A stretch of DNA of 64,000 nt from a virus: the IMG/VR virus record IMGVR_UViG_3300049255_000405. One strand, given 5' to 3'. Both the position numbers and the translations under genes were made by a program. This document shows, one piece after another, positions 17,557 through 20,264 of this stretch; position 1 is the first letter of the stretch, and every line of letters begins with the position of its first letter. Below the pieces are notes generated by a model. That model ran no database searches. It worked only from the letters and a program-made list of their open reading frames with translations, and was not told the DNA's origin.

Positions 17557-17808
17557 ATGCGCCCGTATCGGATGCCAGTCAGAGCGCCCAACCGGGTTCT
17601 CCAAGCCGCTCGACCGAATTTCCAGGTACTGTGGAATCTCCTGGTCGGGGTCGCCGAGAAAACCGGCAATGCACGGTTCAAAGCAATTTTGGCCAACCAT
17701 GCCAACCGGCAGGAGTATATCTGCCGGAGACTGGGCGTCATTTGTCAGGCCGACGTCGACCGGTATGCTAAGAAATTTCAGAGGCCAACTGTTGCAACCA
17801 GGGCGTAA
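17557..17808 (+). CDS. Hypothetical small protein
   Basis: Track ORF with weak RBS. Confidence 0.35.
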   Translation: MRPYRMPVRAPNRVLQAARPNFQVLWNLLVGVAEKTGNARFKAILANHANRQEYICRRLGVICQADVDRYAKKFQRPTVATRA

Positions 17809-17873: not shown

Positions 17874-18581
17874 ATGAAGACGCAGACCAAGACCGAAATC
17901 CGCAACAACACGGCCAAGGCCACCAAGTTGCTGCGGGGCATCGACAACGAGGCGGCAGCGATCGCCAAGGACCAGGCGAAGCTCAACCAGCGCGTCGAGA
18001 ACGTGAAGAAGAGCGTGACCGTGGTCGCGTCCCTGCTCGGCGGCATCTCGAATACGGCCCTGGCGGCTCCCGTGGCTCCGGCCAAGCCCGCTCCGGCTGC
18101 CAAGAAGACGGCGGCGAAGCCCGCCAAGCCGGCCAAGCCCGCGAAGAAGGCGGCGGCCAAGCTCGCGAAGGCGGCGGCCAAGAAGGCAGCCAAGACGGCC
18201 AAGAAGGCAGCGGCCAAGGCAGCCCCGGCGAAGAAGGCGGCGAAGCCGGCGGTCGCCGCGAAGCCGGGCGAGCGTCCGCCGCTCAAGTCCCTCATCAACG
18301 GCACGCTCGACGCCGTGTCCAACGAGTGGACCCCCGCGGCCGAGATCTACAAGCAGGTGTGCGCCAAGGCCGGCTACTTCTCGCGCCAGTCGCTCTACAA
18401 CGCGCTCAAGGACGAGAAGTCGTACGAGAAGCAGGGCGAGGGCGCTGCGGCGAAGTTCCGCCGGGTCGCGGGAGCCTCGGCTTCGGCCAAGGCCGCTCCG
18501 GCGACCAAGACAACCGACGAGGAGGCCGACAAGTTCGTCGAGAAGTCGACGACCAACCCGGCCACCGCGGCGGCGACCTGA
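17874..18581 (+). CDS. Histone H1-like / AlgP-like Lys-Ala-Pro repeat DNA-binding protein
   Basis: GGAGGA RBS; central AKPAPAAKKTAAKPAKPAKPAKKAAAKLAKAAAKKAAK... repeats flanked by structured ends. Confidence 0.65.
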   Translation: MKTQTKTEIRNNTAKATKLLRGIDNEAAAIAKDQAKLNQRVENVKKSVTVVASLLGGISNTALAAPVAPAKPAPAAKKTAAKPAKPAKPAKKAAAKLAKAAAKKAAKTAKKAAAKAAPAKKAAKPAVAAKPGERPPLKSLINGTLDAVSNEWTPAAEIYKQVCAKAGYFSRQSLYNALKDEKSYEKQGEGAAAKFRRVAGASASAKAAPATKTTDEEADKFVEKSTTNPATAAAT

Positions 18582-18585
18582 GACT

Positions 18586-18660
18586 CGGGAACTGGAGTTC
18601 CCACCAGGCTAATAACCTGGGGCTTCGCAGCCATCGCAGGTTCGATTCCTGCCGGTTCGC
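18586..18660 (+). other. tRNA-like cloverleaf element (possible tRNA pseudogene, tRNA-like ncRNA or terminator cluster)
   Basis: Canonical T-arm GCAGG-TTCGATT-CCTGC, anticodon-like arm CCAGG-CTAATAA-CCTGG, D-like arm GGGA-ACTGGAGT-TCCC with U8/A14/GG, extra hairpin GGCT-TCGC-AGCC; no base-paired acceptor stem. Confidence 0.3.
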
Positions 18661-18756
18661 CGGAAGGCGAACTGCACGAGATGCTCTTCTGCTCGGCTTC
18701 TAAACACGAGGCCGAGCGAAGGCATACTTCGTAAAGCTCGAACCGCGTTACGTAAC

Positions 18757-19146
18757 ATGGGCGTGCTCGTTAGACCTTGCGTTGTACGCTCGCTCATGAA
18801 CGTGGCGTCTGACTACGCGTACGATTTCGGAGGCATCGACGTTCTGCACACATACGCCTGCCGAGTCGCTCGTCGCCTACTTCTCAAGAGTTCGTGCGAT
18901 GAGGACCACCCGGTCTTGGCCATAGAGGAACACCTCATCGAAATGGCCAAGTCGAGGCTCCAGGAGTTCCTTCTGGCGTCGTTCCCGGAGGACCCCTCCA
19001 TCATGCGTTTGAGTGCGATAGTCGCCGTCAAACGGGTGGCAGCTTCCAAAATCCAGGCCGCCGACATCGACCTTGCAGTCAAGAAGGAGCTGCTGGGTCA
19101 ACTCGACGAAATGCCCATGGACGACCTCATCCCTCAAGTGCACTAA
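18757..19146 (+). CDS. Hypothetical protein
   Basis: Track ORF; start uncertain (ATG 18796 possible). Confidence 0.4.
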   Translation: MGVLVRPCVVRSLMNVASDYAYDFGGIDVLHTYACRVARRLLLKSSCDEDHPVLAIEEHLIEMAKSRLQEFLLASFPEDPSIMRLSAIVAVKRVAASKIQAADIDLAVKKELLGQLDEMPMDDLIPQVH

Positions 19147-19147
19147 G

Positions 19148-19477
19148 ATGGAAGTCGAGTTTTTCAAGTGGGAAGAGTTCAAGATGGAGACGCTGCACCA
19201 GCAGATCGCGGCTGGCTGCGTCAGCATCGGATTCCAGGTCGAGCGGACCGTAGGTAGCGGTCCGGGCGCGCAGCTCGAGACCACGACCGTGCGCATCCAC
19301 GGCAGGCTCGGAGAGGACAAGGACCGCCCGCACCACTGGAAGATCTTTGCCGTCTTCGAGCAGAACGGGAACAAGAGGACCATGTCCCGCATCTGCGGAC
19401 CGAACGACGTCAAGGAAGAACTCGAGCGGAGCGTCAACACGGCTCGTTCGATGATGTCTGCACGGCGGCCCGCCTGA
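19148..19477 (+). CDS. Hypothetical protein
   Basis: ATG 2 nt after the preceding stop; internal start of track ORF 19073..19477. Confidence 0.45.
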   Translation: MEVEFFKWEEFKMETLHQQIAAGCVSIGFQVERTVGSGPGAQLETTTVRIHGRLGEDKDRPHHWKIFAVFEQNGNKRTMSRICGPNDVKEELERSVNTARSMMSARRPA

Positions 19478-19965
19478 TGGGAACCGAGATCGAACGAAGG
19501 TTCCTCGTCCAGGTCAACAAGCTCCCGGATCTGAAAGAGTACGACGCCGACATCATCGAGCAGGCGTACTTCTCCACAGATCCGTGGGTACGGGTCCGCG
19601 TGTACCAGCGCAACCAACCCAAGGCTGTCCTGGCCATCAAAGGCAAGGGCACAGTCAAAAGGCCGGAAGTCAACTGCGAGATTCCGGTCGCCAAGGCGCG
19701 CGAAATGTGGCCGCTCGCCAAGCACGAGATCCACAAGATTCGGCACTACGTCGACAAGTGGGAACTCGACGAATTCACCGGTGCGCACACCGGGCTATGG
19801 CTCGCAGAGCTGGAGCTGGAGCTGGAGTCGGAAGATACCGCATTCGAACATCCGGAATGGCTCGGTGAGGAAGTCACTGAGGACATCCGCTACACGAACG
19901 CCTTCTTGGCAGAGCACGGTCTGCCTAGTAATCTCCGGCTTGGGACTGCGCACTACATCCGATGA
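19477..19965 (+). CDS. CYTH-domain protein (triphosphate tunnel metalloenzyme family)
   Basis: N-terminal EIERRFLV (ExExK-type) motif and size typical of CYTH; TGATG overlap with the upstream gene. Confidence 0.6.
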   Translation: MGTEIERRFLVQVNKLPDLKEYDADIIEQAYFSTDPWVRVRVYQRNQPKAVLAIKGKGTVKRPEVNCEIPVAKAREMWPLAKHEIHKIRHYVDKWELDEFTGAHTGLWLAELELELESEDTAFEHPEWLGEEVTEDIRYTNAFLAEHGLPSNLRLGTAHYIR

Positions 19966-20264
19966 CGAAGCTCAACCCTCCTGTCACCATCTTCACAGGC
20001 GAAGCCGCCCAAGAGGTTGCCGAGGGTAGGGCCAAGCTCCATCATCTCTATCGAGACCAGCTCGCTGAACGACTCGGGGTGGCCCCCAAAGATCGGGTAT
20101 CGCTCGCGGTCGTGCAAGACGGGGAGAAGGTCTTCATTTCTTGTCTGGTCGACGGCGGGGATTTGACGCCAGGACAAGAAGAGATATTCCGCCAATTCCT
20201 GCTCGAGTGCAAGGGGATTGCGGGGATCATCGGGAGCCTTCCCGAGAAGCCCATCACTTCGTAG
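19962..20264 (+). CDS. Hypothetical protein
   Basis: ATGA overlap with the CYTH stop. Confidence 0.5.
   Translation: MTKLNPPVTIFTGEAAQEVAEGRAKLHHLYRDQLAERLGVAPKDRVSLAVVQDGEKVFISCLVDGGDLTPGQEEIFRQFLLECKGIAGIIGSLPEKPITS

What the first reader, a model, noticed from the sequence alone, without database searches (positions are those of the whole stretch)
18586..18680. tRNA-like cloverleaf without an acceptor stem, directly after the H1-like gene
Within about 90 nt there are five consecutive hairpins. One is a textbook T-arm (GCAGG TTCGATT CCTGC = G53 T54 T55 C56 R57 A58 ... C61). Others are an anticodon-like arm with U33 and purine 37 (loop CTAATAA), a D-like arm with U8/A14/G18G19, and a variable-arm-like hairpin. 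The 5' and 3' flanks (CTGAGAC / CGGTTCG) cannot pair as an acceptor stem, and the 5' flank is the stop codon of the H1-like gene. Possible explanations: a tRNA pseudogene truncated by gene insertion; a recombination (att-like) remnant; a tRNA-like regulatory RNA; or a terminator cluster (a second hairpin CGGTTCGCC-GGAA-GGCGAACTG follows).
Basis: seen in the sequence. Interest (0 to 1): 0.55.

Follow-up and report, generated by a model that had tools for sequence, protein, structure and literature searches.

The report
tRNA-like element after phage H1-like gene
A tRNA-shaped RNA fold sits right after the stop codon of a probably highly expressed DNA-binding gene in a giant-phage genome; related phages keep its hairpins but not a working anticodon or acceptor end, so it is most likely a tRNA-derived structural RNA, not a decoding tRNA.

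Summary
The hairpins are real. Positions 18587-18652 fold into D-like, anticodon-like, variable and T hairpins, and a fifth hairpin lies at 18653-18674. An 8-bp pairing exists (18573-80 with 18653-60, overlapping the TGA). ARAGORN uses its 7-bp version to call tRNA-Ile(AAU), and Rfam's best match is tRNA-Sec at 34 bits, below the threshold of 47. However, this pairing is no better than shuffled flanks, is about isoenergetic with the 3' hairpin, and is not conserved.

The window is a jumbo-phage-type genome. In one clade of relatives, seven sequence variants of the element occupy the same spot after the orthologous gene. Nine of 16 stem pairs covary. The "anticodon" loops differ, and the variable region ranges from absent to about 100 structured nt. 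ARAGORN (default) and Rfam recognise none of the relatives' copies. Other relatives have a plain hairpin there.

No host tRNA or att-like match was found. AUU decoding is not needed.

Best reading: a tRNA-derived, Sec/allo-tRNA-like structured 3'-UTR element that keeps the tRNA "elbow". It probably acts as a processing or stability signal, or as a tRNA mimic. Its function is inferred, not shown.

The parts
17742..17769 (+). sigma-70-like promoter candidate upstream of the H1-like gene (TTGTCA-16-TATGCT)
   Evidence: Consensus scan: 2 sites found against 0.1 expected in shuffles. This is a consensus match only.
17874..18581 (+). H1-like gene (235 aa): N-terminal long helix, Ala/Lys/Pro-rich disordered middle, C-terminal winged-helix domain. 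Its 3' UTR carries the element.
   Evidence: Translation. It has 33 homologs. AF2 model. Foldseek hits to winged-helix DNA binders have prob about 1 but weak E-values of 0.02 or more. GC3 is 0.93, the highest in the window.
18573..18580 (+). Acceptor-like 5' strand GCGACCUG. It overlaps the last two sense codons and the first two bases of the stop codon TGA (18579-81).
   Evidence: It pairs with 18653-18660 in the Rfam tRNA-Sec alignment and in the MFE fold. ARAGORN uses the 7-bp version 18574-80. The pairing is not better than shuffled flanks.
18582..18586 (+). Linker GACUC between the stop codon and the D-like hairpin. It is conserved in sequence across variants (GACUC, GACUU, GAUUC). It can alternatively pair with GAGUU (18595-99) to give the conventional D-stem that ARAGORN draws.
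   Evidence: Its role is unexplained.
18587..18602 (+). D-like hairpin: 6-bp stem GGGAAC/GUUCCC with tetraloop UGGA (tRNA-Sec or allo-tRNA type D-arm)
   Evidence: In relatives, 5 of its 6 pairs change on both sides. The loop contains GG in 6 of 7 variants.
18604..18620 (+). Anticodon-like hairpin CCAGG-CUAAUAA-CCUGG. The 'anticodon' AAU is at 18611-18613.
   Evidence: The stem covaries at 3 of 5 pairs. The loop is not conserved: UAUAAG, CUUCUAU, AAGUAAA and CUCAUAA in other variants, and this arm is absent in L053.
18621..18632 (+). Variable-arm hairpin GGCU-UCGC-AGCC
   Evidence: It is present in L036, absent in L033 and L035, and replaced by about 100 nt of structured RNA in L054 and L056.
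18636..18652 (+). T-arm GCAGG-UUCGAUU-CCUGC with a canonical T-loop. It is the most conserved module of the family.
18653..18674 (+). 3' hairpin CGGUUCGCC-GGAA-GGCGAACUG (9 bp) directly abutting the T-stem. Its proximal strand (18653-60) is also the acceptor-like 3' strand, so the two pairings are mutually exclusive.
   Evidence: The cloverleaf with acceptor scores -43.1 kcal/mol and the arms with the 3' hairpin score -44.3 kcal/mol.
18686..18721 (+). Conserved long hairpin downstream of the element. It is the probable 3' hairpin of the H1-like transcript and is also present in the element-less relative L034.
   Evidence: Compensatory changes across window, L033, L034, L035 and L036. No U tract follows and the terminator scan makes no call there.
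18757..19146 (+). Conserved small downstream gene (129 aa). It marks the far side of the intergenic spacer that holds the element.
   Evidence: Homologous ORFs follow the H1-like gene in L001-L003 and L033-L036.

Best explanation
The element (core 18582-18674) is a tRNA-derived, tRNA-like structured RNA in the 3' UTR of a probably highly expressed winged-helix 'H1-like' gene of a jumbo-phage-type genome. It is most likely not a decoding tRNA.

Shown:
- It is single-copy.
- It lies between the stop codon and the conserved 3' hairpin of the transcript.
- It is inherited at that exact position in one clade of related phages.
- Selection keeps the D-like hairpin (usually with GG in the loop), the anticodon-like stem and a canonical T-arm. 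These are the parts that build the tRNA 'elbow' and L-shape.
- The anticodon loop, the variable region and the acceptor pairing drift, get deleted or expand.

Inferred mechanism: the element is co-transcribed with the H1-like mRNA and folds into an L-shaped tRNA mimic. Factors that read the tRNA elbow then recognise it. The most likely are tRNA-processing endonucleases (RNase P or RNase Z). That would define or protect the mRNA 3' end and release a stable tRNA-like RNA, as plant-mitochondrial t-elements do.

The window's copy is the most tRNA-like member. It has a possible 8/5 Sec-type cloverleaf with anticodon AAU, which is why ARAGORN calls it tRNA-Ile.
For: - Structure in the window: the MFE fold is a cloverleaf with z = -2.4. 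ARAGORN calls it at default settings and makes 0.03 false calls per shuffled window. Rfam tRNA-Sec gives 34 bits, E = 3e-5.
- Position: synteny of pol, dcd, sigma, the H1-like gene and the CN-hydrolase holds in relatives. The element sits right after the H1-like stop codon in window/L032, L033, L035, L036 (=L072-76, L197), L053, L054 and L056.
- Phylogeny: these loci form one clade of H1-like proteins that also contains three element-less members.
- Covariation: 96.9% of cells are paired, 9 of 16 pairs change on both sides, 0 of 500 shuffles reach this, and slid controls give 32-55% paired.
- Not a decoder at family level: the loops are CUAAUAA, UAUAAG (6 nt), CUUCUAU, AAGUAAA (no U33) and CUCAUAA, and L053 has no anticodon arm. 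L054 and L056 carry about 100 nt of structured insert. ARAGORN at default settings and Rfam (E up to 1) recognise none of the relatives' copies.
- Acceptor pairing is not above chance and is absent in L033 and L056.
- No demand for the anticodon: AUU is 19% of Ile codons, 10.6 per 1000.
- Same niche as a 3' hairpin: element-less relatives carry one strong hairpin there.
- High expression is plausible: GC3 is 0.93 and a promoter-like site lies upstream.
- Precedent: t-elements direct RNase P or Z cleavage at mRNA ends, even upstream of the stop codon (PMC1920247). Inactive, destabilised allo-tRNAs are suggested to be noncoding RNAs (PMC5389517).
Against: - No expression or RNA-end data exist, so processing by RNase P or Z is pure inference.
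- If RNase P used the window's acceptor pairing it would cut upstream of the stop codon and create a non-stop mRNA. That looks costly in bacteria.
- There are only seven variants (six complete). The covariation alignment was hand-curated, with the variable region removed and N padding. Any set of unrelated tRNAs would also 'covary' on a cloverleaf.
- My covariance model scores ordinary phage tRNAs (20-39 bits) as high as the relatives' copies (21-39 bits). Homology therefore rests on position, the GACUC linker and the Sec-like D-arm.
- Four of seven variants keep a canonical 7-nt loop with U33 and a purine at 37, so some copies, including the window's, could still decode.
- Signs of decay in L033 and L053, and losses in L034, L042 and L044, show the element is dispensable.
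Confidence: 0.5

Rival explanations
1. The window's copy is a functional, non-canonical phage tRNA. It would have an 8/5 (or 7/5 plus extra loop) cloverleaf with a Sec-type D-arm, a long variable arm and anticodon AAU. It would be co-transcribed with the H1-like gene, cut out by RNase P and RNase Z, given CCA and charged. It would read AUU as Ile, or as another amino acid as a missense suppressor, like the allo-tRNAs.
For: ARAGORN calls it at default settings with a low false-positive rate. It has a canonical 7-nt loop with U33 and A37, a canonical T-loop, GG in the D-loop and an 8-bp closing helix. Allo-tRNAs with Sec-like D-arms, odd anticodons and an extra loop between the acceptor and D-stem exist, and some are active in translation (PMC5389517; PMC7609411). 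Phage tRNAs are often co-transcribed with genes (established knowledge).
Against: It scores below Rfam's thresholds for tRNA and tRNA-Sec. The acceptor has a C.U mismatch, is not above chance, and competes with an isoenergetic hairpin. The linker is 6 nt where tRNAs have 2. The discriminator is C and no CCA is encoded. A34 tRNA-Ile is unusual in bacteria and AUU is already read by tRNA-Ile(GAU) (established knowledge), and AUU is a minor codon here. The orthologous copies in relatives have different or defective anticodon loops and no acceptor. Mature 5' processing would remove the stop codon of the upstream gene.
Confidence: 0.17
2. The element is a decaying tRNA pseudogene with no present function. 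An ancestral phage tRNA gene was lodged after the H1-like gene, and each lineage now retains a different wreck of it.
For: Parts are lost piecemeal. L033 has lost the 3' strand and V-arm and has a 6-nt loop. L053 has lost a whole arm. L034, L042 and L044 have lost everything. Only one of seven variants is still called a tRNA.
Against: Stems are kept by changes on both sides in 9 of 16 pairs, with 97% pairing, across lineages whose flanking protein is only about 45-70% identical. The T-loop sequence and the D-loop GG are retained. L054 and L056 have gained structured domains whose stems also differ by paired changes. That is elaboration, not decay.
Confidence: 0.15
3. The element is an abundant, non-chargeable tRNA mimic that acts in trans as a decoy or partner for a tRNA-binding factor. 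Candidates are a host anticodon nuclease or other tRNA-targeting defence, a tRNA-modifying enzyme, or a Ro/TROVE-type RNP. The variable anticodon-like loops would reflect an arms race.
For: The elbow modules are conserved while the anticodon loops are hypervariable. It lies downstream of the most codon-biased gene in the window. The 3' hairpin can cap the acceptor end. Jumbo phages carry tRNA-repair systems and some have Ro/TROVE proteins with tRNA-like partners (PMC7824862). RtcB sits next to the locus in relative L070.
Against: There is no direct evidence. No TROVE, RtcB or nuclease-related gene was found among the about 40 window ORFs scanned. Rfam shows no Y-RNA/YrlA match. A variant without an anticodon arm (L053) argues against anticodon-nuclease decoys in that lineage.
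Confidence: 0.12
4. The element is an attachment-site (attP-like) remnant, or a recently captured piece of a host tRNA gene.
For: tRNA genes, selC included, are classic integration targets (established knowledge). The element is flanked by an imperfect 9-nt direct repeat, GGCGACCTG (18571-79) and GGCGAACTG (18667-75), and the closest element-less relative L034 has one copy.
Against: Neither the 3' half nor the 5' half has an exact match in 185,579 representative bacterial and archaeal genomes. GenBank phages match only generic T-arm sequence. The orthologous copies differ in sequence between phages, whereas an att core should track a host tRNA. No integrase was found among the scanned ORFs. 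The direct repeat is also what the two alternative pairings of the 3' strand require, so it is not independent evidence.
Confidence: 0.03
5. The element is simply a cluster of terminator or stabiliser hairpins that resembles a tRNA by chance.
For: Element-less relatives have a plain hairpin at the same position. The T-arm motif alone is expected 0.84 times per window by chance. The acceptor is not above chance.
Against: The combination is specific. The ARAGORN false-positive rate is 0.03 per window and Rfam gives E = 3e-5. A canonical T-loop and a GG D-loop recur in six divergent variants. There is no U tract and the terminator scan makes no call.
Confidence: 0.03

Closest known systems
Plant-mitochondrial t-elements (tRNA-like processing signals at mRNA ends; Forner et al. 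2007, PMC1920247)
   Same: Both are non-canonical cloverleaves with a well-conserved T-arm (GGTTCRANYCC). Both sit directly at, or overlapping, the 3' end of an ORF inside the transcript. Neither is used for decoding. Some t-elements overlap the coding end, so RNase P cleavage falls upstream of the stop codon (nad6, ccmC), as would happen here if the acceptor pairing were used.
   Different: This element is in a dsDNA jumbo-phage-type genome, not an organelle. Cleavage is untested. The acceptor pairing that RNase P needs is weak and not conserved. The D-arm is of the Sec type. A competing 3' hairpin is present.
Allo-tRNAs and irregular 'E-loop' tRNAs of soil bacteria (Mukai et al. 2017, PMC5389517; review PMC7609411)
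   Same: Both were found as sub-threshold tRNA-Sec covariance-model hits. Both have a long D-stem with a tetraloop, a long variable arm and non-cognate or diverse anticodons, including an abundant Ile-anticodon (UAU) group. Some have destabilised stems, five-stem junctions or an extra loop between the acceptor and D-stem. Some are inactive in translation and have been suggested to be regulatory noncoding RNAs. Some occur in phages.
   Different: Allo-tRNAs are defined by a 12-bp acceptor branch (8/4 or 9/3) and mostly a G73 or U73 discriminator. This copy is 8/5 (13 bp) with C. Allo-tRNAs are stand-alone genes or polycistrons near toxin-antitoxin or transposon genes, not 3'-UTR elements overlapping a stop codon.
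Bacterial tRNA-Sec (selC, Rfam RF01852)
   Same: Both have the 8/5 acceptor/T geometry, a 6-bp D-stem with a 4-nt loop, an extended anticodon stem (5 bp plus an A.G mismatch) and a variable-arm hairpin. tRNA-Sec is the best Rfam match. The D-arm rule is given in PMC7609411.
   Different: The anticodon is AAU, not UCA. The score is 34 bits against a gathering score of 47. The linker is 6 nt, not 2. The discriminator is C, not G. There is a mismatch in the acceptor. Relatives' copies do not hit the model.
Viral and cellular tRNA-like structures that recruit tRNA enzymes (plant-virus 3' TLS; MALAT1 mascRNA), from my own knowledge plus PMC5723415 (listed, not read)
   Same: Each is a tRNA-shaped module at the 3' end of a longer transcript, and its value lies in being recognised by tRNA-processing or tRNA-binding machinery, not in decoding.
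   Different: Those elements have a functional acceptor end that is aminoacylated or cleaved by RNase P. Here the acceptor is the least supported part.

Membership tests
Canonical elongator tRNA (Rfam RF00005, ARAGORN) | Score at or above the curated covariance-model threshold | tested here: not met
   No Rfam family reaches its gathering score in the window. In E-value mode the tRNA-clan hit that is kept is tRNA-Sec at 34 bits, and a lower-scoring clan member was dropped.
Canonical elongator tRNA (Rfam RF00005, ARAGORN) | Heuristic cloverleaf detection at default settings | tested here: met
   ARAGORN calls tRNA-Ile(aat) at 18574-18661. It makes 2 calls in 60 shuffled windows.
Canonical elongator tRNA (Rfam RF00005, ARAGORN) | 7-bp acceptor stem joined to the D-stem by 2 nt, with a free discriminator and CCA end | tested here: inconclusive
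   A 7/8-bp pairing with a C.U mismatch exists. It is not above shuffled flanks (p 0.2-0.5). With the covarying D-stem the linker is 6 nt. No CCA is encoded. A 3' hairpin competes at equal energy.
Canonical elongator tRNA (Rfam RF00005, ARAGORN) | Anticodon loop conserved among orthologues (7 nt, U33, same anticodon) | tested here: not met
   The window's loop is canonical, but orthologous copies have UAUAAG, CUUCUAU, AAGUAAA or CUCAUAA, and L053 has no arm.
Canonical elongator tRNA (Rfam RF00005, ARAGORN) | Mature, CCA-tailed, aminoacylated RNA in vivo | not testable with these tools
   No transcript data are available.
tRNA-Sec (RF01852) | UCA anticodon, G73, and a score at or above 47 bits | tested here: not met
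   The anticodon is AAU, the discriminator is C and the score is 34 bits.
tRNA-Sec (RF01852) | 13-bp acceptor/T branch (8/5) and a 6-bp D-stem with a 4-nt loop | tested here: met
   Rfam alignment and MFE fold. The rule is given in PMC7609411.
Allo-tRNA (Mukai et al. 2017) | 12-bp acceptor branch in 8/4 or 9/3 configuration | tested here: not met
   The window copy is 8/5, or 9/4 with a terminal mismatch, which makes 13 bp. The definition is in PMC5389517.
Allo-tRNA (Mukai et al. 2017) | Sec-like long D-stem with a tetraloop, and a long V-arm | tested here: met
   GGGAAC-UGGA-GUUCCC, and a 4-bp V hairpin. The D-stem is conserved with covariation.
Allo-tRNA (Mukai et al. 2017) | G73 or U73 discriminator (Ser identity) in most members | tested here: not met
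   The discriminator is C18660 or C18661.
t-element-type processing signal | tRNA-like fold with a conserved T-arm, placed at an mRNA end and not used for decoding | tested here: met
   It lies directly after the stop codon. The T-arm is the most conserved module. The anticodon loops are not conserved.
t-element-type processing signal | Transcript ends that coincide with the element's ends (RNase P or RNase Z cleavage) | not testable with these tools
   This needs 5'/3' end mapping.
attP / tRNA-gene fragment | Sequence identity to the 3' part of a host tRNA gene, plus an integrase | tested here: not met
   There are 0 exact matches for either half in genome contigs. No integrase was found among the scanned ORFs. 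Only representative genomes and exact 22-24-mers were tested.
tmRNA / bacterial Y RNA (YrlA) | Detection by ARAGORN tmRNA mode or by Rfam models | tested here: not met
   ARAGORN -m finds nothing. Rfam shows no Y-RNA or tmRNA hit at E up to 10.

The most novel reading that the evidence does not exclude
A clade of soil and sediment jumbo phages makes, from the 3' UTR of its most codon-optimised gene, an abundant L-shaped tRNA mimic that cannot decode. Its 3' strand can switch between two pairings. In one it closes a cloverleaf over the stop codon, which is possible only when no ribosome is terminating there. In the other it caps itself with a hairpin. The mimic would act either as a translation-sensing RNase P switch for the mRNA, or in trans as a decoy for host tRNA-targeting immunity, with the hypervariable anticodon-like loop tracking that conflict.
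Probability: 0.12. Interest if true: 0.8.

Novelty: new variant of a known kind. Interest (0 to 1): 0.5.

Why it matters
tRNA-like elements that serve as processing or recognition signals are well documented in plant organelles, RNA viruses and mammalian lncRNAs. I found no description of one conserved in the 3' UTR of a gene of large dsDNA phages in the searchable literature.

If it is real, it shows phages re-using the tRNA elbow as a cis or trans RNA device. It would give a concrete, testable case linking the poorly understood Sec-like and allo-tRNA-like "irregular tRNAs" of soil metagenomes to a defined genomic role.

There is also a practical point. ARAGORN annotates this locus as tRNA-Ile(AAU). 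That is probably misleading for codon-usage and host-prediction analyses of such phages.

Tried and rejected
- Exact-pattern scan of the D and anticodon arms in viral contigs: 0 hits.
- H1-like protein as a single query in viral contigs: no relatives. The alignment-based scan worked.
- The four polymerase-based relatives L001-L004 have no tRNA and no element. I first read this as "not conserved", until closer relatives were fetched.
- MAFFT could not align the arms. I seeded a covariance model from two gapless sequences.
- The scan GACTC..T-arm over viral contigs returned only ordinary tRNAs. It showed that my model cannot separate this family from generic tRNAs.
- Host-tRNA or att search in representative genomes: nothing for either half. 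GenBank phages give T-arm similarity only.
- Relaxed ARAGORN: only the L036 copy gives a same-strand call on the element, tRNA-Tyr(GUA) with two A.C mismatches. The other calls fall on the wrong strand or are shifted. tmRNA mode finds nothing.
- I had built an attractive [quoted passage not shown] idea. Shuffle tests did not support the acceptor pairing. I keep it only as a speculative reading.
- I searched for tRNA- or RNA-repair genes in the window to support a decoy or Ro-type role. None was found among about 40 ORFs.
- PDB sequence search for the H1-like protein was uninformative.
Full report
**1. What is in the sequence**

The ORF 17874-18581 ends in ...GCG GCG ACC TGA. After it come, in order:
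- GACUC (18582-86)
- GGGAAC-UGGA-GUUCCC (18587-18602)
- one A
- CCAGG-CUAAUAA-CCUGG (18604-20)
- GGCU-UCGC-AGCC (18621-32)
- AUC
- GCAGG-UUCGAUU-CCUGC (18636-52)
- CGGUUCGCC-GGAA-GGCGAACUG (18653-74)

The isolated stretch 18573-18661 has the cloverleaf as its minimum-free-energy fold (-36.8 kcal/mol, z = -2.4; 2 of 200 shuffles fold as well).

**2. Detectors**

ARAGORN at default settings calls one tRNA in the whole 64-kb window: tRNA-Ile(AAU) at 18574-18661. On 60 dinucleotide shuffles of the window it makes 2 calls, or 0.03 per window.

Rfam at gathering thresholds finds nothing in the window. In E-value mode on 18450-18800 the best match is tRNA-Sec (RF01852) at 34 bits against a gathering score of 47, with E = 3.4e-5. 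That alignment shows a 9/4 or 8/5 acceptor/T branch, a perfect 6-bp D-stem with a 4-nt loop, and AAU where UCA should be.

The T-arm motif GGTTCRANYCC occurs once in the window. That alone is what chance predicts (0.84 expected).

**3. The acceptor question**

However, GCGACCUG (18573-80), which starts six nucleotides before the stop codon and covers its first two bases, pairs with CGGUUCGC (18653-60). The pairing has one C.U mismatch and one U.G, and it can extend to 10 bp. ARAGORN draws the 7-bp version and a weak conventional D-stem, GACU/GUUC, with an 11-nt loop.

Controls weaken the acceptor:
- The duplex energy between the 14 nt after the T-stem and the stop-codon region is not better than with shuffled upstream sequence (p about 0.22).
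- A register-constrained test gives p about 0.5.
- The full cloverleaf with the acceptor (-43.1 kcal/mol) is about isoenergetic with the four arms plus the 3' hairpin (-44.3), which uses the same 3' strand.

So an acceptor stem is possible in this copy. It is the least supported part of the structure.

**4. Context**

The window is a jumbo-phage-type genome. It encodes:
- a family-A-type DNA polymerase, a helicase, a sigma-70-like factor, dCTP deaminase and a MazG-like protein
- RecA, a RuvA_C-domain protein, DnaB, a primase zinc ribbon, DnaJ, peptidases and long structural ORFs

The polymerase's closest relatives lie on IMG/VR contigs of 127-436 kb.

The upstream gene encodes a 235-aa protein with three parts:
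- a long N-terminal helix
- a disordered Ala/Lys/Pro-rich middle
- a C-terminal winged-helix domain (AF2 pLDDT about 80-86 there; Foldseek hits to Fur, Forkhead, KAT6A-WH and F-93 with prob about 1 but E of 0.02 or more)

"H1-like" is therefore a fair label. Its GC3 is 0.93, the highest in the window, which suggests very high expression. A sigma-70-like promoter match lies at 17742-69.

The true downstream gene is the + strand ORF 18757-19146. It is conserved in relatives.

**5. Comparative evidence**

Gene order (pol, dcd, two ORFs, sigma, the H1-like gene, CN-hydrolase) is conserved.

In distant relatives the H1-like stop codon is followed by 13-75 nt, usually one strong hairpin, and then the small gene. 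There is no tRNA.

Closer relatives were found through the H1-like protein. They carry an element at exactly this position:
- L032: identical to the window
- L033
- L035
- L036: identical in L072-76 and L197, contigs up to 445 kb
- L053: cut by the contig end
- L054 and L056

On a rough NJ tree of the H1-like proteins, all element-bearing loci fall in one clade that also contains three element-less members (L034, L042, L044). That fits one gain and later losses. The tree is not bootstrapped.

| Locus | D-like hairpin | Anticodon-like hairpin | Variable region | T-arm |
|---|---|---|---|---|
| window | GGGAAC-UGGA-GUUCCC | CCAGG-CUAAUAA-CCUGG | 4-bp hairpin | GCAGG-UUCGAUU-CCUGC |
| L036 | GUGGGA-GCGG-UCCCAC | CCUGG-AAGUAAA-CCAGG | 4-bp hairpin | GCGGG-UUCGAUU-CCCGC |
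| L035 | GGGAGA-CGG-UCUCCC | UCCGG-CUUCUAU-CCGGA | none | GCGGG-AUCGACU-CCCGC |
| L033 | GGAGA-CCAAAA-UCUCU | CCAGG-UAUAAG-CCUGG | none | GCAGG-UUUGAUU-CCUGC |
| L054, L056 | GGGAC-UGGU-GUCCC | CCUAG-CUCAUAA-CUAGG | about 100 nt in two structured domains | GCRGG-UUCAAUU-CCYGC |
| L053 | CCUGG-GGAA-CCAGG (its only hairpin before the T-arm) | absent | absent | GCGGG-UUCGAUU, then cut |

L033 has also lost the 3' strand.

I made a 51-column alignment of the three shared arms, with the variable region removed and N used as padding. This alignment is hand-curated, so it leans towards the structure.
- 96.9% of cells are paired.
- 9 of 16 pairs change on both sides.
- 0 of 500 shuffles reach this.
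- Sliding the partners drops pairing to 32-55%.

ARAGORN at default settings calls none of the relatives' copies. Rfam at E up to 1 finds no tRNA in them. With relaxed ARAGORN, only L036 gives a same-strand call on the element, tRNA-Tyr(GUA) with two A.C mismatches in the acceptor.

A covariance model seeded from the window and L036 finds exactly one copy per phage and none elsewhere in the window.

An important caveat: ordinary phage tRNAs score 20-39 bits on that model, the same range as the relatives' copies. The argument for common descent therefore rests on three things: the fixed position, the conserved GACUC-type linker and the Sec-like D-arm. It does not rest on model scores.

**6. What is and is not conserved**

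Conserved:
- the position right after the stop codon
- the linker GACUC (or GACUU, GAUUC)
- a D-like hairpin whose loop contains GG in 6 of 7 variants
- a canonical T-arm
- a small hairpin 0-6 nt after the T-stem
- a downstream long hairpin at 18686-18721, which covaries and is also present in the element-less L034

Not conserved:
- the anticodon loop, in sequence, length and U33
- the variable region
- the acceptor pairing (best 6 of 7 pairs in four variants, 4 of 7 in two, none significant)

The constant core is therefore the pair of loops that form the tRNA elbow.

**7. Tests of specific ideas**

- Decoding need: in 11,679 codons of 20 ORFs, AUU is 10.6 per 1000 (19% of Ile) and AUC is 42.9 per 1000. 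Bacterial tRNA-Ile(GAU) reads both codons (established knowledge). There is no evident demand for an AAU tRNA.
- att or host capture: neither CAGGTTCGATTCCTGCCGGTTCGC nor GGGAACTGGAGTTCCCACCAGG occurs in 185,579 representative genomes. GenBank phages share only 27-29 nt of generic T-arm.
- Terminator: no canonical intrinsic terminator follows the gene.
- tmRNA or Y RNA: no match.
- RNA-repair or Ro partners: none among about 40 ORFs of this window. RtcB lies next to the locus in L070.

**8. Interpretation**

The best-supported reading is a tRNA-derived, tRNA-like structured element in the 3' UTR of a probably highly expressed gene. It is maintained for its fold and not for decoding.

How it works is inferred. 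By analogy with plant-mitochondrial t-elements, it could be recognised by RNase P and/or RNase Z, or it could act as a 3' protective structure and the source of a stable tRNA-like RNA. Those t-elements are non-canonical cloverleaves with a conserved T-arm at mRNA ends. They are cleaved by RNase P or Z, sometimes upstream of the stop codon (PMC1920247).

Structurally the closest relatives are tRNA-Sec and the allo-tRNA and "E-loop" irregular tRNAs of soil metagenomes. Those were found as sub-threshold tRNA-Sec hits. They have Sec-like D-arms, odd anticodons, destabilised stems and extra loops. Some are inactive in translation and have been proposed to be regulatory RNAs (PMC5389517; PMC7609411).

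The element fails the defining tests of both families:
- Allo-tRNAs need a 12-bp acceptor branch. This copy has 13 bp.
- tRNA-Sec needs a UCA anticodon, G73 and the score threshold.

The window's own copy could still be a working non-canonical tRNA (about 0.17). A functionless remnant (about 0.15) and a trans-acting decoy (about 0.12) are not excluded.

**9. Unexplained**

- Why the GACUC linker is conserved in sequence.
- Why two mutually exclusive D-arm pairings exist in most variants: linker with the D-loop and 3' strand, against the 6-bp hairpin. L033 shows a matching double change, GAUU with AAUC.
- Why the element is flanked by the imperfect repeat GGCGACCTG / GGCGAACTG.
- What the about-100-nt structured insertions in L054 and L056 do.

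**10. Verdict**

The "no acceptor" claim is half right: an acceptor is possible here but is weak and not conserved. The element is neither an ordinary tRNA gene nor an att remnant. It is a conserved, modular tRNA-like 3'-UTR element of a jumbo-phage clade, a new variant of a known kind. Interest is moderate and depends on transcript-end data.

Noticed in passing
window 30642-33326 (-): An 894-aa ORF matches the Major Vault Protein shoulder domain (Pfam PF11978, 1.3e-25) and a vault repeat (PF17795, 7e-11). An MVP-like protein in a jumbo-phage-type genome is unusual.
   Followed up: no
window 18686-18721 (+): A long hairpin, CUUC(U)GCUCGGC...GCCGAGCGAAG, is conserved with compensatory changes in L033, L034, L035 and L036, and is followed by GCAUA. 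It has no U tract. It is probably the actual 3' hairpin of the H1-like transcript, and it is also present where the tRNA-like element is absent.
   Followed up: partly
window 18747-18756 (+): A perfect 10-bp palindrome, GTTACGTAAC, directly abuts the ATG (18757) of the conserved small gene. It is identical in L034 and has one base change in L033, and it looks like an operator site.
   Followed up: no
window 18571-18579 and 18667-18675 (+): An imperfect 9-nt direct repeat, GGCGACCTG / GGCGAACTG, brackets the element. The closest element-less relative, L034, has a single copy (GGCGACTTG). This could be a target-site-duplication-like footprint, a deletion substrate, or simply a consequence of both repeats pairing with the same 3' strand.
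   Followed up: partly
window 17874-18581 (+): The H1-like protein has a long N-terminal helix, a disordered AKP-rich middle and a C-terminal winged helix. Its GC3 is 0.93, the highest in the window. The family is widespread in large soil and sediment phage contigs, and the low-complexity middle varies in length while the flanking DNA stays identical (P0005, P0006, P0008 and P0009 share an identical downstream element).
   Followed up: partly
window 18877-19788 (-): The 303-aa minus-strand ORF listed mechanically is probably spurious. Gene calls on the identical contig L032 and on relatives, together with conservation, support + strand genes at 18757-19146, 19148-19477, 19477-19965 (CYTH domain) and 19962-20264.
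   Followed up: partly
L054 1810-1908 and L056 939-1037: In these two relatives the variable region of the element is replaced by about 100 nt that fold into a branched domain plus a hairpin. Paired differences between the two loci keep the stems intact.
   Followed up: partly
L065-L068 (about 1.9 kb downstream of the H1-like gene); L070 3903-4698: A TnpB/Cas12f-like ORF (weak Pfam PF07282) lies near the locus in one group of relatives. An RtcB RNA ligase gene lies next to it in another.
   Followed up: no
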